This document shows, piece after piece, positions 5,243 to 28,791 of a DNA stretch of 64,000 nucleotides (its first letter is position 1; each line of letters starts with the position of its first letter). The stretch spans positions 7,135 to 71,134 of the forward strand of contig JBDRIV010000004.1 in the NCBI GenBank assembly GCA_043815505.1, in the 5' to 3' direction. The notes under the pieces are model-generated. The model searched no databases. It worked only from the letters and a program-made list of their open reading frames with translations, and was not told where the DNA came from. The translations under genes and the position numbers were made by a program. The stretch comes from a bacterium. Its GTDB lineage: Bacteria > Patescibacteriota > JABMPQ01 > JBDRIV01.

Positions 5243-6946
5243 TTAGTTGCTAGGGATAAACTCTTTATCTTCTAAATATTTAATCACTTTCTCAGTACAA
5301 GCGACTGTGTCTAATTCTGCAGTTTTTAAGTCTATATCAGGGTTTTGCGGTTCTTCAAATGGATCATTAACGCCAGTAAAATTTTGAATCTCACCTGCTC
5401 GAGCTTTGGCATAAAGTCCTCTGGTATCACGTTTCTCGCAAACCTCAATTGGCGTATTCATAAATATTTCTATAAAATTTTCAGTTTTGGCTCGCAAATC
5501 ATCACGCTGTTTTTTATAAGGTGAAATAAATGATGATATTACTCCCACACCATTGCGTGATAAAAGTTGCGCCACAAAACCAACCCGACGAATATTTTCA
5601 TCTCTATCTTCTTTGGAGAATCCTAAATCTTTGGTTAAGGATTCACGAACTATATCTCCGTCCAGTCGTTCAATTTTTATTCCTCGATCTTTTAGGACTT
5701 CATAAACTGCATCCGCTGTAGTTGTTTTGCCTGATTGAGACAGACCGGTAAACCACAACACAAAACCTTTTTGTTTGCCATTGGTTTTTTTATACATTGT
5801 ATCTACTAATGAATTATTACTATTAACTAAAAAATTAAATACTTCAGATCGTATAACATGTTCCGGTGGTTGTTCTTTTTTCTCAATCATTTCTCTTAAG
5901 GCAGTTCCTGATATGGATTCCGCCTCATCTTCTGGACATTCATTTACAAACATCAATTCTTTCTTTACTTTATTGTAAACCACACCTGCTAATTTCATTA
6001 TTTCTATACCGATTTCTTCTGGCTTGAATTTGTCAAAAACACTTTGAGCAGCGAACGGTTCATAATAATCTCCTACTCCAGCATGATCACGACCAACAAT
6101 AAAATGTGTACATCCAAAGTTTTTTCTAATTAAGGCATGAAAAACGGCTTCGCGTGGACCAGCGTAACGCATTTTTAAAGGCAGAATTCCCAGCACCACT
6201 TTGCCTTCGGGAAAATGTTGTTTAATTAAAATTTCATAACTTACCAAAATATATTCATCTTTAAAGTCCTGTATTTTTTTATCACCGATTACTGGTTGAA
6301 CAAACAAACCATCAACTTTGCTTAAAGCTTCGTGTTGTAAAAATTCGTGTGCTCGGTGCGGAACATTTCTGGTTTGAAAAGCCACAATTTTATTCCAACC
6401 AAGTTCTTCAAATTTTGCTCTGGTCTCAGCTGGCGAAAAATTGTGTTCCGGAAAAGTTTTTTTAGTATTATTCAGAAGTTCGATTTTACCACCAACAAGA
6501 TATTTATTCATTTTATATGTAGCTTCTACGCCCGGATGTTTTTTATCAATTGTCCCGTAAACATTTTGAGCAAATTCTTTTTTATTATATTCATAAATTT
6601 CCGGTTTTTGTAATAAAGCAACTGGCTTATAATCCTCATCCACCAACATTATTTTTTTCTCTCCATTAATTAGTTCTTTTTCTTTGTCATCAATATCTAA
6701 AACTATGGGAATGGACCAAACCACACCACTAGCTAGACGCATATCGGCCAACACAGACAAATAATCTTTTTTTCCTAAGAAACCTTCCAGAGGCGAATAA
6801 ACTCCACGAGCAATATTTTTTACATCTTTTACTTGTTCCTTATCAAGTTGAACTTTTTTGTAATTTTCTTGCTCACCTATTATTTTTTCAGCTTCTTCTT
6901 TGGGCAGAATTTTATTTACCAATTTTCCACCATGCGGTTGTATCAT
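5243..6946 (-). CDS. Bifunctional sulfate adenylyltransferase (ATP sulfurylase) / adenylylsulfate kinase = PAPS synthase
   Basis: The N-terminal half carries the ATP-sulfurylase motifs QTRNVPHRAHE and GRDHAGVG. The C-terminal half carries an APS-kinase P-loop (GLSQSGKTT) and DGDIVR. The start ATG overlaps the stop of the upstream cysQ-like gene (ATGA). Confidence 0.85.
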   Translation of the reverse strand: MIQPHGGKLVNKILPKEEAEKIIGEQENYKKVQLDKEQVKDVKNIARGVYSPLEGFLGKKDYLSVLADMRLASGVVWSIPIVLDIDDKEKELINGEKKIMLVDEDYKPVALLQKPEIYEYNKKEFAQNVYGTIDKKHPGVEATYKMNKYLVGGKIELLNNTKKTFPEHNFSPAETRAKFEELGWNKIVAFQTRNVPHRAHEFLQHEALSKVDGLFVQPVIGDKKIQDFKDEYILVSYEILIKQHFPEGKVVLGILPLKMRYAGPREAVFHALIRKNFGCTHFIVGRDHAGVGDYYEPFAAQSVFDKFKPEEIGIEIMKLAGVVYNKVKKELMFVNECPEDEAESISGTALREMIEKKEQPPEHVIRSEVFNFLVNSNNSLVDTMYKKTNGKQKGFVLWFTGLSQSGKTTTADAVYEVLKDRGIKIERLDGDIVRESLTKDLGFSKEDRDENIRRVGFVAQLLSRNGVGVISSFISPYKKQRDDLRAKTENFIEIFMNTPIEVCEKRDTRGLYAKARAGEIQNFTGVNDPFEEPQNPDIDLKTAELDTVACTEKVIKYLEDKEFIPSN

Positions 6947-7743
6947 TTAATTTCCTTTGTTATTTTCTTATTTAATTCTTTGTTAGCAGAACCTACTATA
7001 CCATCTAAATTATGGGGATCTTTTTTATTAAATTTCAAATCTTGACCCTGCATTCCTGTTACTACTCCTCCCGCTTCTTGTAAAACCACCACGCCACCAG
7101 CTGAATCCCATTCCCATGATTTTGGGCTTAAAGATAGGTAAATATCAGCTTTATTTTCAGCTATTTTACACATTTTCAAGCTTACACTGCCACATTTTAC
7201 ATAATTTTTCACCTGCAATTTCTTGGCCAAATCTTCTTCAGGACCGCCGGAATGATTACGACTAACGATGGCTCTCGCTTCTGCTGTTTCTGAAACTGTA
7301 GAAGTTTTTAACCCAACCTTTTGTCCATCCTTAATTTTATATGAACCTTGTCCTTTTATACCGTAATATGTTTCTCCAGTTACTGGCTGATAAACAATTC
7401 CCATAATGGGCTCCCCATTTTTTATTAAACCAACAATTATAGAAAATTCTCCTGTTTTTTGAATAAAATCCTTGGTTCCGTCCAAGGGATCAACTGTCCA
7501 AATAAATTCGGAGTCTAAACGTTTCTTATCATCAATAGATTCTTCAGCTAAAACTGGATAACCATATTTTTTTAAACCTGCAACTAAAATATCGTTTGAT
7601 TCTGTATCAGCTTTAGTTAAAGGACTGTTATCATCTTTTATTTCAATTTTATAATCCTTATTATAATAAAATCTTACTCGTTCTCCGGCAGTGTGAACTA
7701 ATCTTATAATTTCGGAAGCAACAGTTTCGGGATTATTCATCAA
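6943..7743 (-). CDS. 3'(2'),5'-bisphosphate nucleotidase (CysQ) / inositol-monophosphatase family
   Basis: IMPase-family motifs WTVDPLDGTKDF and the GG..E region. It is translationally coupled to the PAPS synthase, which fits a PAP-recycling role. Confidence 0.65.
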   Translation of the reverse strand: MMNNPETVASEIIRLVHTAGERVRFYYNKDYKIEIKDDNSPLTKADTESNDILVAGLKKYGYPVLAEESIDDKKRLDSEFIWTVDPLDGTKDFIQKTGEFSIIVGLIKNGEPIMGIVYQPVTGETYYGIKGQGSYKIKDGQKVGLKTSTVSETAEARAIVSRNHSGGPEEDLAKKLQVKNYVKCGSVSLKMCKIAENKADIYLSLSPKSWEWDSAGGVVVLQEAGGVVTGMQGQDLKFNKKDPHNLDGIVGSANKELNKKITKEIK

Positions 7744-8680
7744 CTTCTCCTTTAGCTATAACCTCCTTGATGGAATAATTAGTTTTGCCGTTGGAGTAGT
7801 AAGTTTTGATATTTATATCAGCTATAATGCCAAATATTAGAAATTGCACTCCGAGTACCACCAAGAATACCGCCAATAAGGGCAAAATGCTATCTTGTAA
7901 AGAAATATATTTCATTATTCTGGCAATAAACAAGTATAATCCTAGAATTGAACCACTTAAAGTAAAAAGAATTCCTATACCACCAAACAAATGTAAAGGA
8001 CGAGAGGCATATTTACGCCAAAACCAAACTGAAATCATGTCTAAAAATCCTTTAACCACTCGTTTCCAATTATATTTAGTAACTCCAGCCTTACGAGAAT
8101 GGTGTTCAACTTTAACTTCGCCAATTTTATAGCCATCAAGTTTTAAAACTGCCGGTATAAAACGATGCATTTCCCCAAATAAAGTTAAATGATCAAAACA
8201 TTCACTGCGATAAGTTTTCAAACTACAACCAGAATCTTGAATACCATCATTAATTAGAAATTTTCTTAAAACATTGGCACCACGCGATAAGAAATTTTTC
8301 ATAAAGGAATCTTTTCTATTATGTCGCCAACCTGATACAATATCAAACCCCTCATCCATCTTGGCTAGCAATTTGGGAATTTCTTCTGGCGGATTCTGCA
8401 AATCTCCATCCATAGTAATGTAAATTTCTCCCTGTGCTGCTTTAAAACCGGCATCAAGAGCTGCCGTTTGACCAAAGTTTTTTCTCATCACCACAATTTT
8501 CACCGGCATAAGCTTTGATAATCTTTTAACGCTATCATCTGTGGAACCGTCGTCAACAAAAATAACCTCATAAGATTCTGCCAATTTATCCATAGTTTGG
8601 AGAATCCGAGCATGAAGTTCTTCCACGTTTTCGGCCTCATTAAAGACCGGCACTATTACCGAATACTTGTATTTTGCCAT
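7733..8680 (-). CDS. Polyprenyl-phosphate sugar synthase (GtrB/ArnC/DPM1-like GT2 with C-terminal TM helices)
   Basis: KYSVIVPVFNEAENV...EVIFVDDGSTDDS...ITMDGDLQNPPE. It has two C-terminal hydrophobic helices, as in GtrB/DPM synthases. Confidence 0.75.
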   Translation of the reverse strand: MAKYKYSVIVPVFNEAENVEELHARILQTMDKLAESYEVIFVDDGSTDDSVKRLSKLMPVKIVVMRKNFGQTAALDAGFKAAQGEIYITMDGDLQNPPEEIPKLLAKMDEGFDIVSGWRHNRKDSFMKNFLSRGANVLRKFLINDGIQDSGCSLKTYRSECFDHLTLFGEMHRFIPAVLKLDGYKIGEVKVEHHSRKAGVTKYNWKRVVKGFLDMISVWFWRKYASRPLHLFGGIGILFTLSGSILGLYLFIARIMKYISLQDSILPLLAVFLVVLGVQFLIFGIIADINIKTYYSNGKTNYSIKEVIAKGEVDE

Positions 8681-8852
8681 AAATTAGGTGCCTTTTTTAG
8701 CAAAATTTAAAATCACTATATAGCACAACTTATCATATTTTTTTGTTCTTGGCAATTCTTTTTTCTTTTCGATAATAAGCTTATAATTTGGCTTATTTAA
8801 GGGTTTTATTGCTGTTTATAATAACTTGCTTAAGTGTGTTATAATAACCTAT

Positions 8853-10826
8853 ATGGAAGTTGAAGAAAATCAAAATTTAATAGAAGAATTTTTTGAGCCA
8901 ACTATTCGCAATACTGGCATTGTTATTGCTATTTATTTGGCTCTCTTGACAACCTTGGCTATGTTTGGTCTATTCTCTAAAACAGTTGTGATAGTACTTT
9001 TATTTCCAGTAATATTTTTATTTTTATTTTGGCTTTATAAATATCTGCGAAAATTAGAAACTCCTTGGCGCATCCAAAAATTTGATTTTATTGCTCTGCT
9101 TTTAATTCTATTTATTGCTATTGCCCTTGGCGCCTTTCATCATCATTTACCAATGGGTCGCGACGATATGGCCTATATGGCTAGTGCTGTCAACATTTCT
9201 GATAATGGCAGTTTAGAATTTGAAGATGTTTACAGCTATCCTTTTTCCCCTTGGCAAGAAATTTCTGACAATACTTTTACTTCCCAGTTTGTTCCTGTTT
9301 ATGCTGTTGGTTTAGCTTCTTTTTATGTTTTATTTGGACTGACGGGAATTTATTGGTTTAATGCAGTATTAATATTTTTAACCTTATTATTTCTATTTCG
9401 TTTAATAGTTTTACTTACAAAAAGTAGACATTCTGGCATTACATTAATATTACTTTTCAGTTCCCTTTTTACAACGATTTGGTTTGTTCGACGAACAAAT
9501 TCAGAAATTCTATTTATGTTTTTGTTTTGGTTGGGAATTTATTTATTTGTACTGGGGTTCAAGAATTCTAAAATTAATCAAACTTTGTTGGGATTTATAC
9601 CCATCACTCTTCTTCCCCTAGTTCGTTTTGAAGGTGTCTTTTTTATAGTTTCTTATTTATTAGTTTTTATATATTTACTACTTTTCTCAAATTTACGCCA
9701 TAGTAAAACTCGAGCTACAAAATATATTTATTTACCGCTGATTCTTAATTTGGGAATTTTTGTTTGGTATGTTGTTTTGTATAGTTCTGGCTATATTTCT
9801 CGTATTCTAAATGAATATTTTGGTACATTGACTTCATATTTGCTAAACAATTGGATCTTTCTAATTATTTTATTGCTTCTGGTTGTGGGTATAATAATCT
9901 ATCGTGTATTTTATTTCACCAAAAAGGAAATCTCTAAAATAAGTTTTTCCCGATTATTTTTTACTTTATTAATATTAATTGGAATTGCTTGGGGAATTTA
10001 TGAATATTTTCTGTTGCAGTATGCTGATACTGTCAGCTGGGGACAAATAAAGAGTTATTATATAGCCTATAGCTTTTTCACTTATGGTTTTGTCTGGTAC
10101 ATAATTATAGCCCTATTTGGTTGGTATAAAAAATATTTTAAGAAATCTGTTTGGTTAATTGTTCTTATTTCTTTGCCCAGTTTTATGTTCCTAATTGAAC
10201 CTGGTATTGCCATTGATCATCCTTGGTATATGAGAAGGTTTATTGCTGTATTAATTCCCCTACTTATAATACTTGCTACTATCACTTTGGCTAAATTAAG
10301 GCTACCTTTAAAACAACTTTTAAGTTTAACTCTTATTTTACTGGCTTTAAATATAACTATTAGTTTACCAATTTTAATTTATCGCGATCATTTAGGAGTT
10401 GATCAGGAATTGTCAGATTTTGCTGAGCATTTTAAAGACAATGATTTACTAATCATGCAACCCGGTTGGGACTGGCAACAATGGGCTTATGGGCTTCATT
10501 ATCTACATGATTTGGATGTTGTGCCTAGAGAAGATAATTTAGCTAAAGATAAATTGAACGAAATAATTAACAGTCACGAACATATTTATTTAATTAGCAC
10601 CAGCGAAGATTATCGTCACCCTCTTTTTCCCGGCCCCTATGCAGAACCTGATTTTAAATGGCTACTTCATTATCCAGAAATGCAAAAAGCTGCTGATATG
10701 AATTTGTATATTGATGACAAAGGAGCCAATATGAAAACATCAGCCATTAAAGCTTATTTAGACGAATTACCACCACGAGTTATTATGGAAAAACAAACTC
10801 TTTGGTATATAACAAAGGTTAAGTAA
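8853..10826 (+). CDS. Polytopic membrane protein, GT-C-fold glycosyltransferase-like (ArnT/PMT/YfhO-like)
   Basis: It has more than 12 predicted TM helices. A conserved-looking RDD acidic motif lies in the first extracytoplasmic loop (HLPMGRDDMAYMAS). The gene is divergent from the GtrB-like gene. The likely start is the ATG at 8853; the ORF track extends it to a TTG at 8826. Confidence 0.45.
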   Translation: MEVEENQNLIEEFFEPTIRNTGIVIAIYLALLTTLAMFGLFSKTVVIVLLFPVIFLFLFWLYKYLRKLETPWRIQKFDFIALLLILFIAIALGAFHHHLPMGRDDMAYMASAVNISDNGSLEFEDVYSYPFSPWQEISDNTFTSQFVPVYAVGLASFYVLFGLTGIYWFNAVLIFLTLLFLFRLIVLLTKSRHSGITLILLFSSLFTTIWFVRRTNSEILFMFLFWLGIYLFVLGFKNSKINQTLLGFIPITLLPLVRFEGVFFIVSYLLVFIYLLLFSNLRHSKTRATKYIYLPLILNLGIFVWYVVLYSSGYISRILNEYFGTLTSYLLNNWIFLIILLLLVVGIIIYRVFYFTKKEISKISFSRLFFTLLILIGIAWGIYEYFLLQYADTVSWGQIKSYYIAYSFFTYGFVWYIIIALFGWYKKYFKKSVWLIVLISLPSFMFLIEPGIAIDHPWYMRRFIAVLIPLLIILATITLAKLRLPLKQLLSLTLILLALNITISLPILIYRDHLGVDQELSDFAEHFKDNDLLIMQPGWDWQQWAYGLHYLHDLDVVPREDNLAKDKLNEIINSHEHIYLISTSEDYRHPLFPGPYAEPDFKWLLHYPEMQKAADMNLYIDDKGANMKTSAIKAYLDELPPRVIMEKQTLWYITKVK

Positions 10827-12346
10827 TGGACAAACTTACCATAAAAATTATCAAGATATTAATTATAGTTTCTCCGCTTATTCTCTTTGGATATCTGCTA
10901 GACAAACGCTTTGTTCCGAGTGGCAAAATAAGTTTTGTTTACGATTTCAAAAATGATTCTGGTTTTATTTCTAAGCTTTATCCTGATGATAGAATAGCTG
11001 AAATTGAAAACACGGACGATTTTTATTCACAAGCACTAAAAAAAGATTTAGCTTATTTTGATACTTTTATATTTCGTCCTTTCAACGAAATTAAAATGAC
11101 AGTTGATTTTAAACCTGGTCAGCAAAATGTCGTTGAACTTGGTCCCGATATTTCTGACAATAAATGGACTTATGATTTTCAACCGTTAACTAATCAAATT
11201 CTAAATAATTTAACTTGGGAACAGGTAGCTGAAAATGGAACAATTTTATGGCAAAAAGAAAAGAATTATGATTCTTTAGAACAATTATTTGGCAATTTAC
11301 CTGGGGAAAATAAGAATGTGGCCTATTATAATTATGATGATTTTATCAGCGACCGTCGTTTAGCCGATTACTCTCCCACTGACGAAACATATGTAATAAA
11401 TGAAGCCTTGCGTGGTAGTCATACAATTTATACTTACATTAAAGATGAAAATTTGGATATTAAAGTGCAAAAATCTGATTTAAACAGGTATAATGGCCAA
11501 GACGAATTAAATATCAGATTATTCTCAGGCGCCAGAGAAATTTTTGCTAAAACAATAGATGATGATGGTATTAATGATAACTCTGATGTCCCAGGAAAAA
11601 TTCAAGCCACGCAAGTTAAAATTTCTAAAGAATCTTTGCCGGAAGGAATTTATCGTATTGAACTTGATACCTCCGATGATGTTTTAATTAGAAGAATTGA
11701 AACTAAACAAAATAAATTAGTATTTGCCAATAAAATATTTTTAGCAGAAAATGTTAATTACTTGCCAACCGAATCTGTTAAAGACGAGCCCACTATTGTA
11801 TATGCTTCTATTTATCCCGAGCTAGGAAAAACCGAGGTGGAAACCCCCCGAGCAGAAAGCCTCCAGACCATTACTTTTGATAATAAATCAATTAAATTAA
11901 CAGAACCTAATACTAAATATGATATTAGTCAACTAGTTGATGCTACGGGTATTACTAAAATTTCTGTCCCGGATCGTGATATAAAGATTGAGAGCAAAGG
12001 TTTCTTTGCTTTTTCCGATCAGCAATATTTTTATCCCCTGCCACCAAATTATTCCAGGCTAAGTGATACAACTAATTTAGATAAAACTGATTACATAATT
12101 GCTAATTATGTAAAACCAACTAAGCTGGCAGATGACAGGTGGCAAAATTCAATTACTTTTAATTATGATGATGTTTATATTGATCAGAATAATACTTTAC
12201 AGTTTGCTCTTTCAGCCCCTAATTTAGAAAACAATAATAACAGTGTTGCCATATCCCAAATTAAATTGGAATTGATAAAAGATCCGCTTCATTGGAACGA
12301 TTTCTTGCCCCGTCTCAAAAACTATATCACTAATTTGTATCAATAA
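10826..12346 (+). CDS. N-terminally membrane-anchored extracytoplasmic protein, unknown function
   Basis: A 506-aa ORF translationally coupled (ATGA/TAATG) to both the upstream GT-C gene and the downstream gene. It has a single N-terminal TM helix and is Asp/Asn-rich. Confidence 0.5.
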   Translation: MDKLTIKIIKILIIVSPLILFGYLLDKRFVPSGKISFVYDFKNDSGFISKLYPDDRIAEIENTDDFYSQALKKDLAYFDTFIFRPFNEIKMTVDFKPGQQNVVELGPDISDNKWTYDFQPLTNQILNNLTWEQVAENGTILWQKEKNYDSLEQLFGNLPGENKNVAYYNYDDFISDRRLADYSPTDETYVINEALRGSHTIYTYIKDENLDIKVQKSDLNRYNGQDELNIRLFSGAREIFAKTIDDDGINDNSDVPGKIQATQVKISKESLPEGIYRIELDTSDDVLIRRIETKQNKLVFANKIFLAENVNYLPTESVKDEPTIVYASIYPELGKTEVETPRAESLQTITFDNKSIKLTEPNTKYDISQLVDATGITKISVPDRDIKIESKGFFAFSDQQYFYPLPPNYSRLSDTTNLDKTDYIIANYVKPTKLADDRWQNSITFNYDDVYIDQNNTLQFALSAPNLENNNNSVAISQIKLELIKDPLHWNDFLPRLKNYITNLYQ

Positions 12347-12717
12347 TGTCTCTGCGCAATTTATTAAATCGCGATAATATAAATGAAATAAACACCACGT
12401 TTTTTTCCACGGTTATAATAACTTATATTATAATTTTATTAATAGATATTGTTACCTCAGGTTTTGTGGCGCGTTTGTTTAACATAAACATCTTTTTGTT
12501 TCTATGCGCAGTTTCTGCTTTTATTATGATGGTATTCCCACCCAAAAAATCTTATTTTGCAGATAAATTTTCAAAAAATTTCCTCCTAATAGTTTCTCTA
12601 TTAGCAGGAGCTCTGGTTTATGCCAAGACCTTTGATACTGGCTGGGAAGGAATTATATTTTCCTTGGCCGTTTTGTTTATTACTTACCAATCACTAAAAC
12701 TTTTTTATCAGCCTTAA
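12346..12717 (+). CDS. Small 4-TM membrane protein (GtrA-like flippase-associated protein?)
   Basis: A 123-aa protein with 3-4 hydrophobic helices. Its size and position next to the GtrB-like/GT-C genes resemble GtrA. No diagnostic motif was seen. Confidence 0.35.
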   Translation: MSLRNLLNRDNINEINTTFFSTVIITYIIILLIDIVTSGFVARLFNINIFLFLCAVSAFIMMVFPPKKSYFADKFSKNFLLIVSLLAGALVYAKTFDTGWEGIIFSLAVLFITYQSLKLFYQP

Positions 12718-13664
12718 GATCTGTTGGTTTTATACCAGTCAACAAATATTTTAATTCCGTCAGTAAATGAGGTTGACGGTTTAAAGCCAAGTAACTGCTC
12801 GGCTTTTTTTGTATCAGCATAAGTAATAGCCACATCTTCTTTTGGTTTGGGTGATTCTTCAATAATTGCCTTTTTACCTATTGCCTCTTCTATATTGGCA
12901 ATAAATGAGTTCAAATCTATTGGCTTTGAATTTCCTAGATTTATAATTTCGTAAGGAAAGGATTTTTTGGCAGCTGCTATTACACCATTTACAATATCAT
13001 CAATATAAGTCCAGTCCCGTTTCATGGAACCATCACCAAATTTTTTAATGGGTTGGTTTTTTATTATTGCTTCTGTGAATAAATATGGCGCCATATCAGG
13101 GCGACCTTTTGGTCCATAAACGGAAAAAAAGCGCAAACAGGTCGTATTTAAGCCAAATAAATAGTGATAGGTATAGCACATCAACTCCCCTGCTTTTTTT
13201 GTGGCAGCATAGGGAGAGGCGGGACTATTAACATCATCACTTTCTGCAAAAGGAACTTTTTTATTATTACCATAAACTGACGATGAGGAAGCAAAAATAA
13301 AATCCTTCGGTCCATATTTTTTGGCAGCTTCTAAGAGATTTAATGTTCCCATAACATTTACTTGGTTGTAAAGTGTGGGATCGGCAATTGAATTTCGCAC
13401 TCCGGCTCGGGCAGCTAGATGAATTATTTTATCAAATTTGTTTTCGCTAAATACTTCTTCTACAAATTCTCTATTAGTAAAATCTCCTTCTAACAAATGA
13501 AACTTTACGAATTTTTCAAGTTCAGCAGTATTTTGTCTTTTGTATTCTGGATTATAATAATCGTTAAAACAATCTAAACCAAAAACTTCTTCTCCGTTTT
13601 CAAGAAGTTTTTTAGCAACTGAAGAACCAATGAAACCGGCGGCGCCGGTGATTAAATATTTCAT
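12714..13664 (-). CDS. NAD-dependent nucleotide-sugar epimerase (UDP-glucuronate 4-epimerase-like)
   Basis: ITGAAGFIGSSVAKKLL followed by YYNPEYKRQN, a pattern seen in Cap1J/LpsL/GlaKP-type epimerases. The SDR motif YAATKKAGE is present. It lies adjacent to ugd. Confidence 0.7.
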   Translation of the reverse strand: MKYLITGAAGFIGSSVAKKLLENGEEVFGLDCFNDYYNPEYKRQNTAELEKFVKFHLLEGDFTNREFVEEVFSENKFDKIIHLAARAGVRNSIADPTLYNQVNVMGTLNLLEAAKKYGPKDFIFASSSSVYGNNKKVPFAESDDVNSPASPYAATKKAGELMCYTYHYLFGLNTTCLRFFSVYGPKGRPDMAPYLFTEAIIKNQPIKKFGDGSMKRDWTYIDDIVNGVIAAAKKSFPYEIINLGNSKPIDLNSFIANIEEAIGKKAIIEESPKPKEDVAITYADTKKAEQLLGFKPSTSFTDGIKIFVDWYKTNRS

Positions 13665-13665
13665 T

Positions 13666-14739
13666 TTAATTTAAATATTGACTCGGTATTAATTTCTTAT
13701 CTATCATCTTTTCCAATTCCTTGTTATAAACTCTCGATTTTTCTTTAATAAGGTTTCTTATTAACTTAGGTAATTTATACTGTAAAAATCGATATTTACT
13801 ACAAATTCTACTATAATACCTAATAATTTTGAGAATATACTTATCAAATTTGGAATATATGGTTTTAGAATGGTTTTTCAATAACTTAATATTATTTATA
13901 AATTTATCAACATCTTTATTATCATATAACGATCTTGACTTTCTAGCCTGCAATAAAAGATTGTTCATTATCTTACTATCATAACCATAATTTGAACGAA
14001 ATGCTATTTTATGCTTTGCCATTATTATCACAATAAACATTGTTATAAGATCGTATGAAATATTTGTTCTAGGAATATTAATATCGGAGCTGTTGTCAAA
14101 TTTGATACCTGCTATTTTTAATATTTCACTTCCGATATTTGTAATATTACTTTTATAATTTTCGTAAAACAAAATACTAAGCTTGTCTTTATAATGAAAT
14201 GAAAATTCTTTTATTAAATCTACATAATTCCAATCGTTAATATCTATTTGCATGCATCTCTTCCATTTCTCATTATAAGCAAATTTAATATTGGAAAATG
14301 GAAGAAAAACATCTTTTGGATTTAGAAAATAATTTTGATAAACATGCTGTTGATACAAACTTCTTAAAATACTTTCTTGATGCCTTAAAACTATGATTAT
14401 TCTCGCATTTGGAAATATTGCTTTAATAAACTTTAGTCTTTTTTTGTAGTCAAACCTTAACATCCTTAGAGATAGTGTTTCTAATGATATTAATATATTC
14501 TTCTGCTTAATCTTTTTTTCTTGATTTTCTATAACATTCTTTAGTAATTCTATGTCATCTTCTTTAAACATATCAAAATCCACAAGTTTTATTGCTTGTT
14601 TGAGTGAATTAAGTATTACCAGAGGGTTATAGATTGTAGAATTATTATTGAGTCTTGAGAAAAAATGTTTTTGAATTGCTGTAGTGCCGGTTTTTGGTAA
14701 TCCAATATGAAGTATATAATTCTTCATGTTTTGATTCAT
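13666..14739 (-). CDS. Sulfotransferase-like P-loop protein
   Basis: N-terminal HIGLPKTGTTAIQ (5'-PSB-like PKxGTT) and a later IIIVLRHQESILRSLY region (3'-PB-like). The rest of the protein is divergent. Confidence 0.45.
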   Translation of the reverse strand: MNQNMKNYILHIGLPKTGTTAIQKHFFSRLNNNSTIYNPLVILNSLKQAIKLVDFDMFKEDDIELLKNVIENQEKKIKQKNILISLETLSLRMLRFDYKKRLKFIKAIFPNARIIIVLRHQESILRSLYQQHVYQNYFLNPKDVFLPFSNIKFAYNEKWKRCMQIDINDWNYVDLIKEFSFHYKDKLSILFYENYKSNITNIGSEILKIAGIKFDNSSDINIPRTNISYDLITMFIVIIMAKHKIAFRSNYGYDSKIMNNLLLQARKSRSLYDNKDVDKFINNIKLLKNHSKTIYSKFDKYILKIIRYYSRICSKYRFLQYKLPKLIRNLIKEKSRVYNKELEKMIDKKLIPSQYLN

Positions 14740-14788: not shown

Positions 14789-16078
14789 TTATTTCCCAAT
14801 ACCAAAATATTTATAGCCCATATTTATCATTTTTTCTTTATCTAAAAGATTGCGACCATCAAAAATGTAAGGTTTTTTAAGCATAGATTTTATTTTATTC
14901 CAATCCAGATCTTTAAATTCTGGCCATTCGGTAGCAATAATTACAGCGTCTGCATCTTTAACGGCTTCATAAGCATCGTTGGTATATTCAACCTCATGTC
15001 CGTTTAAGGCGCTGGCCGCCGTTTCTTCGGCAATTGGATCATAAGCAGCCACTTTGGCACCAGCTTCTTTTAAAAGCTTTATAATTTCTAAACTGGCAGA
15101 TTCACGAATATCATCTGTATTGGCTTTAAAAGCTAAACCCAGTGCACCAAATTTTAATCCTTTAATTTCTTTAAACTCATCCTTAATTTTTTCAAATAAT
15201 ACTCTTCTTTGGTTATTATTGACAGTAATTACAGCCTTTAAAAGGTTAAATTCATAACCACGAGTTCCAGCAATTTGGTAAAGAGCATTAACATCTTTTG
15301 GAAAACAAGAGCCACCATAGCCAATTCCCGCGTGCAAAAAATGCCGTCCGATTCTATCATCCCTACCCATCCCGTGAGCGACCATGTCAACATCAGCTCC
15401 AACCTTTTCACAAATGTTAGCAATTTCATTTATGAAAGATATTTTGGTTGCCAAAAAAGCATTGGAGGCATATTTAATCATTTCTGAGCTAGCAATATTT
15501 GTTGTTATGATATCAGCGTCAATGGGATCAAATAGTTTTTTTATTTTGTCTTTGGCTTTTTTACTCTCTGCTCCAATTACAATTCTGTTAGGTTCAAAGA
15601 AATCCTGTACCGCTGAACCTTCACGTAAAAATTCCGGACAAGAAACTACATCAAATTCTCCCTTATAATGTTTTTTAATTATTTTCTTTATTTCCTGACC
15701 TGTTCCTACTGGTACAGTACTTTTAGTAGCAATTATTTTGTAGCCTTTCAGGTTTTTACCAATATCTTCTGCTACTTGATAAACATATTTCAGATTGGCA
15801 GTTCCATCTGGGTTAGACGGCGTTCCTACAGCAATGAATACAATTTCTGATTCAGCCAATTCATCTTTTAAGGATGTTGAAAAAGAGAGGGTTCCTTTTT
15901 TTGCTTCTTCAACTATTAATTCTGTTAATCCTGGTTCATAAATAGGAACTTTTCCCTTTTTTAATTTCTCAATTTTTTCTTTATCAATGTCGACACAAAC
16001 CACTTGATTGCCAAATGATGCTAAACAAGGACCTAATACTAATCCTACATAACCTGTTCCGACAACTGTTACTTTCAT
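14789..16078 (-). CDS. ugd: UDP-glucose 6-dehydrogenase
   Basis: MKVTVVGTGYVGLV Rossmann motif and the catalytic Cys region (GGSCFPKD). Confidence 0.85.
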   Translation of the reverse strand: MKVTVVGTGYVGLVLGPCLASFGNQVVCVDIDKEKIEKLKKGKVPIYEPGLTELIVEEAKKGTLSFSTSLKDELAESEIVFIAVGTPSNPDGTANLKYVYQVAEDIGKNLKGYKIIATKSTVPVGTGQEIKKIIKKHYKGEFDVVSCPEFLREGSAVQDFFEPNRIVIGAESKKAKDKIKKLFDPIDADIITTNIASSEMIKYASNAFLATKISFINEIANICEKVGADVDMVAHGMGRDDRIGRHFLHAGIGYGGSCFPKDVNALYQIAGTRGYEFNLLKAVITVNNNQRRVLFEKIKDEFKEIKGLKFGALGLAFKANTDDIRESASLEIIKLLKEAGAKVAAYDPIAEETAASALNGHEVEYTNDAYEAVKDADAVIIATEWPEFKDLDWNKIKSMLKKPYIFDGRNLLDKEKMINMGYKYFGIGK

Positions 16079-20088: not shown

Positions 20089-21474
20089 TTATTCTCCGAT
20101 AGAATTAATAGGGTCCCCGCCGGGATGTAAAAGCACTATCCAATTAGGGATGCGTTTAACTTGGCCATAATTATAACCCAAGCCTTCAAAGATTGATGGT
20201 GAACCGATGTGTCGGCGCTTGCCATTTTCCATTACAAAAATGTGACCCGATTCATCAGCAAACAATGTTCCGTCTTGTAATAAGACATTTGGTCCAGTGG
20301 CATAGCGATTCATTTCGGCAGTAGAAATTGTAATTATGTCTTGCCAACGAAAACGATTCTCAAAAACTATCCGATCGCTAACTGGTTGTTTTTTTCCACC
20401 ACTTATTAAGAACACAGCGCCACTATCAGCAGTTTTTACCAAAGCGCCATCAGGATGCTTTCTGGTATTTTTATCGGTTATTAAAGCACCATCACCATAA
20501 CTATTATACTCGGCCTGATTAATTGGCATGACGCGACTAAAATTGTATCCCAGGCTATCAAATACATCGCGCGAGGTTACTCCTCGGCGTTTTTCGTGTT
20601 CCACAACATAAATTGCACCTTGACCATCCAGCTGAATTAAAGTGCCATCAGGATATAAAAGCATGGTTCGTTCGGGATATTTTTGCAATTCAGTTGAACT
20701 AACTTCAATCACATTTCTCTCAGAAAACTGACGATAAGCAAATAAATTATCAGTTATAATAGCTCGTCTTTTTCCGTTGTCTATATAATAAACAATTCCT
20801 TCAGGAGAATCTTTTAAAAGTGAACCGTTAGGATGAGTAGCATCAAAATATGAAATCCAAATTTTCCAAAATAGAAAGTTGCCACCATTTCCTGTGACTG
20901 TATCTTTCGTACCTGCTGGAGCCCCTGCAACAGGCGTATAATTGTAAAGTCCGGCAGTGGCAGAATTAGCTGGTTTTACCGAAACACCATCCTGAGTAGT
21001 TCTACGAACATTTACTTTATAATTGTAATTACCCGGATTATCTAAATATCTTCTGAATTGCTTAGCAGCATAATTAATTTGATTAAAGACTCCACCAAAT
21101 TCACTTACGCTCCCATAACCCATTAGATGTCGCAAAGCTCCACTGGATAAATTTGATGTGGTTATAGCACTTTGTTCTTTTTGAGCATGAGCCAGTAGAA
21201 ATTGCTGACTGATACGATAATATTTAGCAGCATCATAAAATATTTGGGAAACCCGTTTTCTCCCTCCAATAGCATCAACGGCCATTCCAGCTAAACCACT
21301 TCCCTTAGATCTCAAAAAAGCCTCAATTTGATCTGGGTTCATTGATGATGAATTTGTATATTCATTATTAGAGACAATATTATTGGGATTAAAAGTTGCA
21401 GCTAAAACCAGCCCTGGCACCATCACTGATGCTAAAACTGTCAAGCATAGAATAAATCCGGTTGTTTTTTTCAT
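20089..21474 (-). CDS. Secreted protein with four tandem ~54-aa repeats
   Basis: Signal peptide MKKTTGFILCLTVLASVMVPGLVLA. The C-terminal half contains four repeats built on the pattern DG(T/A)L...G.(I/V)(Y/F).(I/V)..GK(R/K)..(I/V).S..(I/V)F...G(Y/F). Confidence 0.6.
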   Translation of the reverse strand: MKKTTGFILCLTVLASVMVPGLVLAATFNPNNIVSNNEYTNSSSMNPDQIEAFLRSKGSGLAGMAVDAIGGRKRVSQIFYDAAKYYRISQQFLLAHAQKEQSAITTSNLSSGALRHLMGYGSVSEFGGVFNQINYAAKQFRRYLDNPGNYNYKVNVRRTTQDGVSVKPANSATAGLYNYTPVAGAPAGTKDTVTGNGGNFLFWKIWISYFDATHPNGSLLKDSPEGIVYYIDNGKRRAIITDNLFAYRQFSERNVIEVSSTELQKYPERTMLLYPDGTLIQLDGQGAIYVVEHEKRRGVTSRDVFDSLGYNFSRVMPINQAEYNSYGDGALITDKNTRKHPDGALVKTADSGAVFLISGGKKQPVSDRIVFENRFRWQDIITISTAEMNRYATGPNVLLQDGTLFADESGHIFVMENGKRRHIGSPSIFEGLGYNYGQVKRIPNWIVLLHPGGDPINSIGE

Positions 21475-28700: not shown

Positions 28701-28791
28701 CAAAGGGAGTGGCAATAATATGCAAAAATTGCCGTACCAATTTATAAATCTGTCGACCGATTTCTTTAATTTTTTTCCATAAATAAGCCAT
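25738..28791 (-). CDS. Large membrane-anchored surface protein with a clan GH-A glycoside hydrolase-like domain and C-terminal FG-GAP (integrin-alpha-type) repeats
   Basis: It has an N-terminal TM helix. The clan GH-A acid/base motif YWEIGNEHY and the nucleophile motif VTEFN are present. Three C-terminal FG-GAP-like blades carry GDIDGDGQEEI / CGDIDNDGKDEI / MGDIDADNKEEV. Confidence 0.7.
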   Translation of the reverse strand: MAYLWKKIKEIGRQIYKLVRQFLHIIATPFVEWEILFFLKIGLLILIIAVITLTHDSRATQNIKIRVNPLDIGNSIDSKVAGFSSDPELFNKDNLNEALEDYPAGAVRIFAPYDPGARMLVKIVDGKYYVLDSDNVTYNPGQEYHLEFRVNGSSLRLYIDNKVVFSDSDSTFSTGDIGLISSDNEKVIFNNVRITNLANDEVLYQDLFNDSDDSEWSNGDIPYYRNTGTWTSGNGRYVHEGKIPFVLRRAGLKNWRNYKFEVDVKPVAAGNPFDQGYIGIAARSQNTLNNYRFIWRAEQRQPTYSGKPWGVRDFESALDLADETNSPIVMVANTKGTPTNAANLVRQLNIVENRHIKYWEIGNEHYIWDDATMTASKYAQTVKQFSSAMKAVDPSIKIGAHVALDNSVANWERVLFQEANNQIDFVAVHYYPFYGIGGESYHQLMASARSFQKNYPTPYGQGMGVVDRLNDIARRYGNRTSELEVLVTEFNTGDENLGRSLAYGIATADLLGAMQQEGVTAGMFHGISVFGSHWGAFKDNGDPRPSALAVSLVNEHHGNKAIASTVTGSPKYSVGQFRNLPALSKNKYVTSYASRSGDKIYLLIINKHPNTAMQADIGIDHFNSNRQVTIYSLNGPSIYAHNESITKVQVSESRQSFSGNSIDLRIPAHSVMILEINGEVKASLPVVDPPQDTNKPPNNGSGGENITVNYKIAVARGAGATPEIKVFNNLGQEETRFYAYAENFRGGVRLASGDIDGDGQEEIIAGAGTGGGPQIRVFESNGSVKPIQFFAFHSDSRTGVDVACGDIDNDGKDEIAASQFANGEAWVKVYRYNDEQTVVGEWRAFAPGLEIGATVAMGDIDADNKEEVIVGAGTGGGPQIRVFEANGALKPIQFYAFHPDSRTGVDVATVDADSDGKDEIAVSQLRNGEAWTKIYRYNNERNQLAEFRAYPQGVEAGANIDFVPLTYYGTPGVITGPNASGGPQVRTFNTGGGENSLQFFAFEDYFRGGISAVGLIQ
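25940..26550. repeat. Two tandem ~300-bp near-identical DNA repeats inside the FG-GAP region of the 1017-aa gene
   Basis: The antisense ORF-track fragments 25936..26247 and 26284..26544 translate to near-identical peptides. The sense-strand protein repeats IAGAGTGGGPQIRVFESNGSVKPIQFFAFHSDSRTGVDVACGDIDNDGKDEI as IVGAGTGGGPQIRVFEANGALKPIQFYAFHPDSRTGVDVATVDADSDGKDEI. Confidence 0.6.

What the first reader, a model, noticed from the sequence alone, without database searches (positions are those of the whole stretch)
7733..12717. Divergent GtrB-like / GT-C pair with two coupled membrane proteins: extracytoplasmic glycosylation arm of the locus
The GtrB/DPM1-like GT2 (minus strand) is divergently transcribed from a three-gene, translationally coupled plus-strand unit. 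The unit encodes a 12+ TM GT-C-like protein with an RDD loop motif, a 506-aa N-terminally anchored extracytoplasmic protein, and a 123-aa small membrane protein (GtrA-like?). This is the architecture of lipid-linked sugar donors used outside the membrane (Gtr O-antigen modification, ArnT, protein O-mannosylation). The 506-aa partner has no recognisable domain and may be the acceptor or a specificity subunit. The 145-bp divergent spacer (8681..8825) should hold both promoters.
Basis: partly seen in the sequence, partly recalled or inferred. Interest (0 to 1): 0.6.

Follow-up and report, generated by a model that had tools for sequence, protein, structure and literature searches.

The report
Lipid-linked surface glycosylation module, new partners
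A candidate-phyla (Patescibacteria) bacterium encodes a standard two-enzyme system that loads a sugar onto a membrane lipid and transfers it outside the cell; the system is coupled to a previously undescribed pair of membrane proteins that sits beside this class of enzyme in many related genomes.

Summary
All four ORFs lie at the stated coordinates, and both plus-strand junctions are 1-nt TAATG overlaps.

- **GT2 (7733-8680, minus):** a full-length ArnC/GtrB/DPMS-class polyprenyl-phosphate sugar synthase (ArnC structures, E 1e-49).
- **666-aa protein:** more likely 657 aa, starting at ATG 8853. Its AF2 model (pTM 0.83) matches only GT-C enzymes. It has about 15 TM helices, and an invariant RD in the GRDD motif sits in an outward-facing loop.
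- **506-aa protein:** an N-terminal TM helix followed by an all-beta ectodomain. It has no Pfam, NCBIfam or PDB relative, yet belongs to a family of about 1,965 cluster representatives. All named members are Patescibacteria.
- **123-aa protein:** not detectably GtrA. It is the 4-TM form of a conserved 2-TM family whose gene follows the 506-aa gene in 13 of the 15 locus types whose downstream side could be read.
- **Synteny:** one genome (L010) reproduces the whole layout. Elsewhere the 506/small pair lies next to GT-C genes of at least three different types, or is translationally coupled to the ArnC-like GT2.
- **Sugar:** the conserved neighbouring UDP-GlcA 4-epimerase-like gene and a UDP-glucose dehydrogenase suggest a uronic acid, probably GalA.

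Verdict: a known kind of system (GT2 plus GT-C) with a new, widespread accessory pair of unknown role.

The parts
7733..8680 (-). Polyprenyl-phosphate sugar synthase (GT2, ArnC/GtrB/DPMS class): a GT-A domain plus a C-terminal two-helix membrane hairpin. It is the first gene of a long minus-strand operon and overlaps the CysQ-like gene by 11 nt.
   Evidence: Pfam GT2 1.3e-32. NCBIfam ArnC 1.2e-54 over residues 5-309 and PgfS 2.5e-42, both below the equivalog cut-offs. PDB ArnC 9bhc/8vxh/9hwj about 1e-49 over residues 4-307, GtrB 5ekp about 5e-30, DPMS 5mlz 1e-24. Two TM segments at 235 and 268. 61-71% identical orthologs next to 506-aa homologs in L010, L011 and L012.
8681..8852 (.). Divergent intergenic spacer. 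It holds a plus-strand -35/-10-like pair at 8749..8776 and an extended -10 (TGTTATAAT) at 8837..8845, 7 nt before ATG 8853. Three exact blocks are shared collinearly with the orthologous L010 spacer.
   Evidence: The shared blocks are CTTATTTAAGG, TTCTTGGCAA and ATAGCACAA; 21 of 1000 shuffles reach the observed total. No minus-strand consensus promoter was found. Function not shown.
8853..10826 (+). GT-C fold glycosyltransferase, distantly PMT_2/GT39-like: 657 aa (666 aa if TTG 8826 is used), about 15 TM helices, N-terminus inside. The GRDD (102), VRFE (257) and DHPWYMRR (455) motifs and a 148-aa C-terminal alpha/beta domain are predicted to face outside.
   Evidence: AF2 pLDDT 78.5, pTM 0.83. 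Foldseek PDB top 21 hits all GT-C. Pfam PMT_2 only 18.2 bits against a cut-off of 26.1, but the homologs P0003 and L005_730 pass. Invariant R103, D104, R258, E260, D455, P457, W458, R461 and R462. Positive-inside count 22 against 11.
10826..12346 (+). Single-pass membrane protein of an unannotated Patescibacteria family: N-terminal TM helix (about residues 4-29), an acidic, cysteine-free, all-beta ectodomain of several beta-sandwich-like domains, and a C-terminal amphipathic helix. The start overlaps the GT-C stop codon (TAATG).
   Evidence: AF2 pLDDT 85.8, pTM 0.74. No global PDB match (TM about 0.15), only generic jelly-roll, CBM-like and BcsB hits. No Pfam, NCBIfam or PDB-sequence hit. Family of 1965 representatives at E<=1e-3 and 1015 at E<=1e-30. 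Ectodomain pI 4.6 with 0 Cys.
12346..12717 (+). Small 4-TM membrane protein, the long form of a conserved 2-TM hairpin family whose gene directly follows the 506-aa family gene in most loci. The start overlaps the 506-aa stop codon (TAATG).
   Evidence: 4 TM segments. 40% identical 122-aa ortholog in L010. The N-terminal half is homologous to the 58-69-aa 2-TM proteins in L012, L013, L004, L014-16, L006 and L021; long forms occur in L011 (140 aa), L018 (121 aa) and L020 (144 aa). No GtrA or other Pfam hit at E<=10. The word-index search found only the protein itself.
12714..13664 (-). UDP-glucuronate 4-epimerase-like SDR enzyme, convergent with the unit. It is the inferred supplier of the UDP-uronic acid donor for the GT2.
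   Evidence: PDB 5u4q 6e-90, then B. cereus UGAepi (the 6zl6/6zld series) 2e-52, ahead of GalE and WbgU. The 6ZLD/6ZLL identity is confirmed in PMC11519531. Ser-rich carboxylate site, Tyr/Lys pair and an Arg185 equivalent are conserved in the alignment. Orthologs sit in the same convergent position in L010 (68%) and L013 (50%).
14789..16078 (-). UDP-glucose 6-dehydrogenase, which makes UDP-GlcA. It is the inferred first step of donor supply.
   Evidence: NCBIfam TuaD 1.7e-175, NDP-sugar dehydrogenase subfamily 496 bits against a cut-off of 190. UGDH genes also sit next to related units in L013, L001 and L020.

Best explanation
This is the lipid-carrier-dependent, extracytoplasmic sugar-transfer branch of a large surface-glycan locus in a Patescibacteria (CPR) genome. 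The steps are as follows. Step 1 (shown by homology): the ArnC/GtrB-class GT2 transfers one sugar from a UDP-sugar to polyprenyl phosphate at the cytoplasmic face. Step 1a (inferred): the sugar is a hexuronic acid, most likely GalA, made by the nearby UDP-glucose dehydrogenase and the conserved adjacent UDP-GlcA 4-epimerase-like enzyme, as in the rhizobial RgtE pathway. Step 2 (inferred, component unknown): the polyprenyl-P-sugar is flipped across the membrane. Step 3 (fold and motifs shown, activity inferred): the roughly 15-TM GT-C enzyme uses this donor on the outer face, with its invariant Asp (GRDD), VRxE and DHPWxxRR motifs in outward loops, to modify a surface glycan or protein. Step 4 (genomic association shown, mechanism inferred): the 506-aa single-pass beta-rich ectodomain protein and the small 2/4-TM protein form a conserved non-catalytic accessory pair. 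The pair works with GT-C enzymes of several subfamilies and with the GT2, most plausibly by binding or positioning the acceptor (CBM-like ectodomain) and anchoring in the membrane next to the enzyme.
For: GT2: full-length matches to ArnC, GtrB and DPMS structures, including the TM hairpin. GT-C: confident AF2 model; only GT-C enzymes among the top 21 PDB hits; invariant acidic and basic motifs on the predicted outer face; relatives pass the Pfam PMT_2 threshold. Coupling: TAATG overlaps at both junctions. Synteny: the whole layout recurs in L010. GT-C -> 506 -> small recurs with a different PMT_2 enzyme in L018. PMT/PMT_2 -> 506-homolog occurs in the P0022 contig. In L011 the order is GT2 -> 506 -> small -> a roughly 1000-aa polytopic protein, whose family (A3) aligns to the GT-C core at 88% probability. 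The same roughly 1000-aa gene lies adjacent in L004, L014, L015 and L016, which also carry a homolog of the window's GT-C 5 kb upstream. The small TM gene follows the 506-family gene in 13 of the 15 locus types whose downstream side could be read. For the 506-aa protein, only structural residues (Gly, Tyr, Phe, Ile) are invariant across 15 diverse members. It is well folded with no Ser/Thr-rich disordered tract, and its weak fold hits are beta-sandwich, CBM-like and BcsB domains. Sugar: UGAepi-like signature residues and UGDH recurring at related loci. Precedent: RgtE/RgtD/RgtF (PMC7663294) and PgfS/PgfE/PgfM1 and GtrB/PgtC2 in monoderm bacteria (PMC12041528).
Against: No activity, donor or acceptor has been shown. 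The window's GT-C is below the Pfam PMT_2 threshold (18.2 against 26.1 bits), and profile searches against PDB sequences find nothing. Foldseek TM-scores are moderate (0.32-0.47 normalised to the query among the E<=1e-3 hits). The 506/small pair also occurs with no GT-C within 7 kb (L006/L007, L008/L009, L021), so it is not an obligate GT-C subunit. The closest full-length GT-C homolog on a long contig (L001) has no 506 gene nearby. The CBM-like reading rests on low-TM generic hits. The GalA inference rests on gene neighbourhood and on the epimerase's similarity. Its best PDB match (5u4q) is labelled a dTDP-glucose dehydratase, and no paper characterising it was found. The loci sampled are few and partly related to each other (L004, L014, L015 and L016 share one layout).
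Confidence: 0.6

Rival explanations
1. The 506-aa protein is the acceptor: a membrane-anchored surface glycoprotein that the adjacent GT-C glycosylates. It is encoded next to its modifying enzymes, as the adhesins are in the S. mutans Pgf cluster.
For: It is extracytoplasmic, abundant as a family and acidic. It stays constant while the neighbouring GT-C subfamily changes, which fits a substrate that different enzymes can serve. Precedent: the Pgf cluster encodes its own target adhesins (PMC12041528). The protein has seven N-x-S/T sequons.
Against: It has no Ser/Thr-rich disordered region of the kind known GT-C O-glycosylation targets carry: S+T is 13% and the only low-confidence stretch is residues 310-318. 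In L011/L012 the GT2 gene overlaps its start by 8 nt, and the TAATG coupling in the window implies matched expression levels, which is unusual for an enzyme and its substrate. It always comes with a dedicated small TM partner. Its conservation (45% to L010) matches that of the GT-C (47%) rather than the faster drift expected of a surface antigen.
Confidence: 0.2
2. The 506/small pair has an envelope function unrelated to GT-C catalysis (for example wall or S-layer anchoring, or polymer export or assembly). It sits in glycan loci only because envelope genes cluster.
For: Three locus types have the pair without any GT-C nearby (L006/L007, L008/L009, L021). In L006 and L021 it is followed by Band_7 and a dTDP-sugar isomerase instead. 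CPR genomes are small and their envelope genes are often clustered.
Against: The pair lies directly next to a confirmed or likely GT-C-type gene in 10 of the 13 locus types with enough flanking sequence, and three or more GT-C subfamilies and different gene orders are involved. Start/stop overlaps link it to the GT-C (window) or to the GT2 (L011, L012).
Confidence: 0.15
3. The small TM protein is the polyprenyl-P-sugar flippase, a functional analogue of GtrA, GtcA or ArnE/F. It would act as a 4-TM monomer or as a dimer of 2-TM units. This can hold together with the best explanation.
For: The window, L010, L018 and L020 forms have 4 TM helices and are 121-144 aa long, the size and TM count I recall for GtrA-type flippases (from memory; not checked here). 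No other flippase candidate lies in the unit, and GT2/GT-C systems need one (established for Gtr and Arn).
Against: GtrA (PF04138) does not appear for six members even at E<=10. Most relatives are 58-69 aa with only 2 TM helices. The gene follows the 506-aa gene even where no GT2 or GT-C is nearby (L006, L021). The alignment shows a conserved loop motif but was not examined for membrane-embedded charged residues.
Confidence: 0.15
4. The 666-aa protein is not a glycosyltransferase but a transporter or other polytopic protein.
For: The Pfam PMT_2 match is below threshold, and there is a weak Wzy_C hit (E 0.0086). No sequence-level PDB match exists.
Against: Foldseek places only GT-C enzymes above E 0.1, and MFS/POT transporters appear at E 1-1.5 with TM 0.11-0.16. 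The invariant Asp-containing loop motif and the extracytoplasmic C-terminal domain are typical of GT-C enzymes. Homologs pass the PMT_2 threshold.
Confidence: 0.03

Closest known systems
Rhizobial RgtE / RgtA-D,F galacturonosylation pathway (with UDP-GlcA 4-epimerase)
   Same: UDP-Glc dehydrogenase and UDP-GlcA 4-epimerase supply UDP-GalA. A GT2 (RgtE) makes bactoprenyl-P-GalA, and ArnT-like GT-C enzymes transfer GalA outside the membrane (PMC7663294). The window has the same four enzyme types within 8 kb.
   Different: The Rgt acceptors are lipid A and the LPS core, which a monoderm-like CPR bacterium should lack. No direct sequence comparison with RgtE was made. The 506-aa and small-TM pair has no counterpart there.
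Streptococcal Pgf (PgfS-PgfM1-PgfE-PgfM2) and GtrB/PgtC2; Bacillus/Listeria CsbB-GtcA-YfhO
   Same: These are monoderm bacteria with a GtrB-class GT2, an epimerase in the operon and GT-C enzymes that glycosylate surface proteins or teichoic acids outside the membrane (PMC12041528). PgfS is the second-best NCBIfam match of the GT2 (2.5e-42).
   Different: Their GT-C enzymes are YfhO-type, whereas this one is distantly PMT_2-like. Their sugars are Glc or GalNAc/GlcNAc. No equivalent of the 506-aa protein is described, and GtcA is a GtrA-family protein, which the 123-aa protein is not.
ArnC/ArnT (with ArnE/F) lipid A aminoarabinose system
   Same: ArnC is the closest solved relative of the GT2 (E about 1e-49, full length). 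ArnT is among the GT-C fold matches (5f15, 4.4e-4).
   Different: The GT2 scores 185 bits against the ArnC equivalog cut-off of 529, so it is not an ortholog. There is no ArnA, ArnB or ArnD, and there is no lipid A acceptor.
Phage/Shigella GtrA-GtrB-GtrV O-antigen glucosylation
   Same: Three-part logic: a GT2 synthase, a small membrane protein and a polytopic GT-C transferase.
   Different: GtrA homology was tested and not found. GtrB is a more distant match than ArnC. There is an additional 506-aa ectodomain protein.
Non-catalytic beta-sandwich partners of membrane glycosyltransferases (BcsB of cellulose synthase; ribophorin/OST48/Ost4-type subunits of eukaryotic OST). Analogy only.
   Same: They are single-pass membrane proteins with beta-sandwich ectodomains, plus very small TM subunits, that accompany a polytopic transferase. 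BcsB appears among the weak fold hits (9fmt, E about 1e-3).
   Different: No homology was shown (TM about 0.16). No physical complex has been tested. The resemblance to OST subunits is from general knowledge and was not computed.

Membership tests
GT-C fold glycosyltransferase superfamily | Polytopic membrane core with the GT-C fold | tested here: met
   AF2 model pTM 0.83. Foldseek PDB ranks 1-21 are all GT-C enzymes, with E from 3e-6 to 0.12. TM-scores are only 0.32-0.47 (query-normalised) among the hits with E<=1e-3.
GT-C fold glycosyltransferase superfamily | Conserved acidic residue in the first large extracytoplasmic loop | tested here: met
   D104 of GRDD is invariant in 7 homologs. The loop at residues 96-145 has 8 D/E and 1 K/R and is predicted to face outside. 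Structural superposition on a known catalytic Asp was not possible with these tools.
Pfam PMT_2 (PF13231) / CAZy GT39-like | Score at or above the Pfam gathering threshold (26.1 bits) | tested here: not met
   The window protein scores 18.2 bits, E 0.0031. Its homologs L005_730 (33.9 bits) and P0003 (precomputed PF13231) pass, so it is a divergent relative rather than a clear member.
Polyprenyl-phosphate glycosyltransferases (ArnC/GtrB/DPMS class of GT2) | GT-A catalytic domain followed by a C-terminal TM hairpin, alignable over the full length to characterised members | tested here: met
   Residues 4-307 align to ArnC structures (about 1e-49), 4-291 to GtrB and 3-228 to DPMS. TM segments at 235 and 268.
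ArnC (undecaprenyl-phosphate Ara4FN transferase) equivalog NF007986 | Score at or above the NCBIfam equivalog cut-off (529 bits) | tested here: not met
   185.4 bits. PgfS likewise scores 145 against a cut-off of 500.
GtrA family (PF04138) lipid-linked sugar flippases | Detectable match to the GtrA profile | tested here: not met
   No PF04138 hit at E<=10 for W_123, L010_122 or four short relatives.
GtrA family (PF04138) lipid-linked sugar flippases | About 120 aa with four TM helices (typical GtrA size and TM count recalled from memory, not checked here) | tested here: inconclusive
   W_123, L010_122, L018_121 and L020_144 have 4 TM helices. Seven relatives have only 2 TM helices and are 58-69 aa long.
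UDP-glucuronate 4-epimerase (UGAepi) | Carboxylate-binding Ser/Thr cluster, catalytic Tyr/Lys, and the Arg (Arg185 in the B. cereus enzyme) that holds the GalA carboxylate | tested here: met
   The alignment to 6zl6 shows SSSS opposite S125-T126-S127-S128, SPY..TK opposite SPY149..TK153, and YGPKGRPDMA opposite YGPRQR185PDMA. The role of Arg185 is stated in PMC12338863. Activity not tested.

The most novel reading that the evidence does not exclude
The 506-aa ectodomain protein and its 2/4-TM partner are dedicated non-catalytic subunits that assemble with GT-C transferases (and possibly with the polyprenyl-P-sugar synthase) into a multi-subunit glycosylation complex. This would be a CPR-wide bacterial counterpart of the multi-subunit eukaryotic oligosaccharyltransferase, in which an interchangeable catalytic GT-C plugs into a conserved acceptor-binding scaffold.
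Probability: 0.25. Interest if true: 0.7.

Novelty: new variant of a known kind. Interest (0 to 1): 0.5.

Why it matters
Patescibacteria are a very large, mostly uncultured branch of bacteria that live attached to other cells, so their surface chemistry is central to their lifestyle, yet it is almost unknown. This locus shows that they use the universal system of a lipid-linked sugar plus a GT-C transferase. It also identifies a family of about 2,000 sequence clusters, with no annotation anywhere, that repeatedly accompanies those enzymes. If the pair proves to be a subunit or scaffold of GT-C enzymes, that would be a new organisational principle for bacterial extracytoplasmic glycosylation. 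It would also give a route to finding the acceptors. If the pair is instead the acceptor, it would be a major conserved CPR surface glycoprotein. The same locus also points to a sulfated, methylated, uronic-acid-containing glycan, a rare chemistry in bacteria.

Tried and rejected
- **Profile searches against PDB sequences:** the GT-C (A1), 506-aa (A2) and ~1000-aa (A3) alignments found nothing meaningful.
- **Second copy of the 506-aa family in the window:** the 461-aa N-anchored ORF at 20089-21474 is not one (hhalign probability 0.1%). HMMs of A1, A2 and A3 hit only the known genes in the window.
- **The 1017-aa ORF (25738-28791) as the window's counterpart of the recurring ~1000-aa proteins:** rejected. 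It has one TM helix with GH-like and FG-GAP domains and shows no BLAST similarity to them.
- **506-aa family versus the soluble half of the ~1000-aa proteins:** no similarity.
- **Informative fusions in long family members** (P0158, P0097, P0022, P0071, P0142): none. P0158 and P0097 match the family profile in more than one stretch, which suggests internal duplication. The only Pfam hits are sub-threshold beta-sandwich matches.
- **L020_535 and L021_518 as GT-C enzymes:** hhalign to A1 was not significant. L020_535 remains only suggestive (8 TM, SSPDET after TM1), and L021_518 is a secreted protein.
- **Genome scans:** the scan with the full alignment failed for lack of a conserved block. The narrower alignment gave 6 loci, and the metagenome scan only found the same contigs again.
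- **Literature:** searches for CPR GT-C systems and for 5U4Q found nothing useful.
- **Word-index search with the 123-aa protein:** it found only the protein itself. Relatives emerged only from synteny plus local BLAST.

Full report
**1. Observation**

- GT2: 7733..8680 (-), 315 aa.
- A 666-aa ORF: 8826..10826 (+).
- A 506-aa ORF: 10826..12346 (+).
- A 123-aa ORF: 12346..12717 (+).

Both plus-strand junctions read TAATG, so each stop codon shares one base with the next start codon. The 123-aa gene overlaps the convergent epimerase gene by 4 nt. Almost every other gene in the 64-kb window is on the minus strand, so this unit is the one plus-strand block.

The sequence comes from an NCBI MAG labelled only 'bacterium' (locus tags ABIE68_03890/95/900, 255-kb contig). 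All named relatives are Patescibacteria.

One correction concerns the start codon. NCBI starts the large protein at ATG 8853 (657 aa). That start is favoured by the alignment with the L010 ortholog. It is also favoured by an extended -10 element, TGTTATAAT at 8837-8845, which lies downstream of the TTG at 8826 and is conserved (TGCTATAAT) 6 nt before the equivalent ATG in L010. The spacer is then 172 bp, not 145 bp.

**2. The GT2**

- Pfam GT2 matches at 1.3e-32.
- NCBIfam ArnC matches at 1.2e-54 over residues 5-309, and PgfS at 2.5e-42. Both are far below the equivalog cut-offs.
- Among solved structures, ArnC is best (about 1e-49, residues 4-307), followed by Synechocystis GtrB (2e-30 to 5e-30) and Pyrococcus DPMS (1e-24).
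- Two C-terminal TM segments lie at 235 and 268.

It is therefore a polyprenyl-phosphate monosaccharide synthase of the ArnC/GtrB/DPMS class, but it is not an ArnC ortholog. Its stop region overlaps the CysQ-like gene by 11 nt, so it heads a long minus-strand operon.

**3. The 657/666-aa protein**

Sequence methods are weak here. Pfam PMT_2 scores 18.2 bits against a cut-off of 26.1. Nothing is found in PDB sequences with either the single sequence or the profile. Only 7 relatives turned up in 5.8 billion proteins.

The structure is decisive. The AF2 model built on the 7-sequence alignment has pLDDT 78.5 and pTM 0.83. Foldseek against the PDB returns only GT-C enzymes in ranks 1-21: STT3, ALG12, PglB, DPY19, ALG9, ArnT, AftB, Pmt4, Pmt1/2 and EmbA. 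Transporters first appear at E about 1 with TM 0.11-0.16.

Hydropathy gives about 15 TM segments. The K+R count in short loops is 22 inside against 11 outside for an N-in topology. That topology places these features on the outer face:
- the invariant R103-D104 of GRDD;
- R258/E260 of VRFE;
- D455/P457/W458/R461/R462 of DHPWYMRR;
- the 148-residue C-terminal alpha/beta domain.

**4. The 506-aa protein**

No Pfam, NCBIfam or PDB-sequence relative was found for it or for 14 diverse homologs.

AF2 gives a confident model (pLDDT 85.8, pTM 0.74). It has a TM helix at residues 3-29, all-beta structure from 34 to 484, and a C-terminal helix at 490-505. The K-rich N-terminus predicts that the bulk of the protein lies outside. 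The ectodomain has pI 4.6 and no cysteine.

Foldseek finds no global match (TM about 0.15). The hits are generic jelly-roll or beta-sandwich modules: birnavirus VP2, Cry/Vip toxin domains, PorU, CBMs of xylanase and dextranase, and BcsB.

Across 15 members only Gly, Tyr, Phe and Ile positions are invariant, apart from the start Met. Conservation is spread evenly along the chain. This argues for a binding or structural protein rather than an enzyme.

An exhaustive profile search shows that the family is large. It has 1,965 representatives (50%-identity clusters) at E<=1e-3 and 1,015 at E<=1e-30. Nearly all of the best 150 are full length at 449-594 aa.

**5. The 123-aa protein**

It has four TM segments. 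No Pfam hit appears, and in particular no GtrA, even at E<=10 for six members. The word-index search found only the protein itself.

Synteny revealed its relatives.
- L010 has a 122-aa ortholog (40% identity).
- 58-69-aa, 2-TM proteins directly downstream of 506-family genes in L012, L013, L004, L014-L016, L006 and L021 align with its N-terminal half. For example, L012_69 against L010_122 gives E 1e-6.
- Longer forms occur in L011 (140 aa), L018 (121 aa) and L020 (144 aa).
- The core is a hairpin with a conserved loop motif.

**6. Synteny**

I counted near-identical loci once.

*The small TM gene.* It follows the 506-family gene in the window, L010, L011, L012, L013, L004/5/17, L014, L015, L016, L018, L006/7, L020 and L021. 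It does not in L008/9 or the P0022 contig. That is 13 of the 15 locus types whose downstream side could be read.

*A GT-C-type gene next to the pair.*
- Window and L010: the same subfamily (47% identity), directly upstream.
- L018: a 562-aa PMT_2 enzyme, directly upstream on the same strand (Pfam 9e-12; hhalign to A1 94%).
- P0022 contig: a PMT/PMT_2 enzyme of 534 aa, 3 nt upstream.
- L020: an 8-TM protein with SSPDET after TM1, directly upstream. This one is unproven.
- L011, L004, L014, L015 and L016: a roughly 1000-aa polytopic protein, directly downstream.

The roughly 1000-aa family has no Pfam hit. It has 6-8 TM helices followed by a soluble half of about 550 aa, and it aligns with the GT-C core of A1 at 88% probability, including the VRxE-equivalent IRSEPH. 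L004, L014-L016 and L019 also carry a full-length homolog of the window's GT-C 4.5-5 kb upstream.

*Exceptions.* There is no GT-C within 7 kb in L006/7, L008/9 and L021. The L012 and L013 contigs are too short to judge.

*The GT2, epimerase and UGDH.*
- The ArnC-like GT2 is 61-71% identical in L010, L011 and L012. In L011 and L012 it overlaps the start of the 506-family gene by 8 nt, with no GT-C in between.
- The epimerase ortholog sits in the same convergent position in L010 (68%) and L013 (50%). In L013, UGDH comes next.
- The nearest long-contig GT-C homolog (L001) has UGDH, a different GT2 and GT4 genes around it, but no 506 gene.

The conserved core, however, is 506+small. GT-C and GT2 are frequent, interchangeable neighbours.

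**7. The sugar (inference)**

- The convergent SDR enzyme matches 5u4q best (6e-90). Next comes B. cereus UDP-GlcA 4-epimerase (2e-52), ahead of the GalE/WbgU-type enzymes.
- 6ZLD, 6ZLL and 6ZLJ are confirmed as the B. cereus UDP-GlcA 4-epimerase in PMC11519531.
- In the printed alignment, the Ser/Thr carboxylate site, the Tyr/Lys pair and the Arg185 equivalent are all conserved. Arg185 is the residue that holds the GalA carboxylate (PMC12338863).
- A TuaD-like UDP-glucose dehydrogenase lies two genes away.
- UGDH recurs at L013, L001 and L020.

The precedent is the rhizobial pathway, in which RgtE makes bactoprenyl-P-GalA for the RgtD/RgtF transferases (PMC7663294). I rate GalA, or another uronic acid, at about 45%.

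**8. Mechanism**

*Shown by homology or fold:*
- a polyprenyl-P-sugar synthase and a GT-C transferase whose conserved motifs face outward;
- tight translational coupling of the GT-C, 506 and small genes;
- recurrent adjacency of the pair to GT-C and GT2 genes.

*Inferred:*
- flipping of the lipid-linked sugar by an unidentified component;
- transfer to an unknown surface glycan or protein;
- a non-catalytic accessory role for the 506/small pair (acceptor binding or positioning, membrane anchoring beside the enzyme).

*Rivals* (their evidence is set out in the rival-explanations section):
- the 506-aa protein is the acceptor (0.2);
- the pair has an independent envelope role (0.15);
- the small protein is the flippase (0.15, compatible with the main model);
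- the large protein is not a GT-C (0.03).

**9. Comparison with known systems**

It works like the Gtr, Arn, Rgt, Pgf and CsbB/YfhO systems (PMC12041528). It is not a member of the ArnC or PgfS equivalogs, and the small protein is not a member of the GtrA family. The GT-C is only a divergent relative of PMT_2.

The 506/small pair has no described counterpart. No paper in the searchable library links Patescibacteria with GT-C glycosylation.

**10. Verdict**

The core is an ordinary and correctly recognised GT2/GT-C glycosylation arm. The added value is a large, unannotated, apparently CPR-restricted two-protein module that travels with these enzymes. I rate it a new variant of a known kind, with interest 0.5.

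Noticed in passing
window 5243-7743 (-) and 13666-14739 (-): A complete PAPS supply sits inside the glycan locus: a fused ATP sulfurylase/APS kinase of 567 aa, a CysQ-like PAP phosphatase and a cytoplasmic sulfotransferase. FkbM-type and other methyltransferases and MetK lie alongside. This points to a sulfated, methylated surface glycan, which is unusual for bacteria and undescribed for CPR. The GT2 is co-oriented with the sulfate-activation genes and overlaps the CysQ-like gene.
   Followed up: partly
L011 2798-5830 (+); L004 8412-11438 (-); L001 14259-17162 (-); also L014-L016: A family of roughly 1000-aa proteins with no Pfam hit. They have 6-8 N-terminal TM helices and a soluble C-terminal half of about 550 aa. 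They recur next to 506/small pairs and next to a GT-C homolog, and align to the GT-C core at 88% hhalign probability. They are probably a second, undescribed GT-C type. The window has no copy.
   Followed up: partly
window 8720-8845 and L010 723-860: The orthologous divergent spacers share collinear exact blocks (ATAGCACAA, TTCTTGGCAA, CTTATTTAAGG; 21 of 1000 shuffles reach this). Both have an extended -10 (TGnTATAAT) ending 6-7 nt before the ATG, which suggests a leaderless GT-C mRNA. In L010 the element lies inside the annotated N-terminus (MCYNDF), so that start is probably called 6 codons too early.
   Followed up: partly
window 25738-28791 (-): A 1017-aa single-pass protein with weak glycoside-hydrolase-like matches (GH53/GH39) and FG-GAP repeats, at the edge of the glycan locus. 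It may be a surface glycan-processing or adhesion protein. An FG-GAP protein also sits next to the 506 homolog in L008.
   Followed up: no
window 20089-21474 (-): A 461-aa N-terminally anchored protein with no family, embedded between sugar-nucleotide genes. I tested it as a possible paralog of the 506-aa family and it is not one.
   Followed up: partly
L006 7001-10319 and L021 5152-8309: A second conserved context for the pair. The order is 506-homolog, then a 58-63-aa small protein, then a Band_7 (stomatin-like) protein, then a dTDP-sugar isomerase, with no GT-C nearby. This hints at a membrane-microdomain or scaffold association.
   Followed up: no
L019 (CAZQLY010000019.1, 6.5-kb contig): A contig from a MAG labelled 'uncultured Gammaproteobacteria' carries homologs of both the 506-aa protein and the GT-C. 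Given that all other named members are Patescibacteria, it is probably a mis-binned contig.
   Followed up: no
P0022 (749 aa), P0097 (766 aa), P0158 (1290 aa): Longer family members seem to carry internal duplications. P0022's insertion repeats the GxYRLEI motif of the middle beta-sandwich domain, and P0158 matches the profile in 4 stretches. No foreign domains are fused.
   Followed up: partly
window 8001-12000: GC skew rises from about -0.15/-0.25 to -0.09 and +0.03 across the plus-strand unit, in step with the strand switch. The unit may be a local inversion relative to the otherwise single-strand gene order. In L011 and L012 the GT2 and the 506 gene are co-oriented.
   Followed up: no
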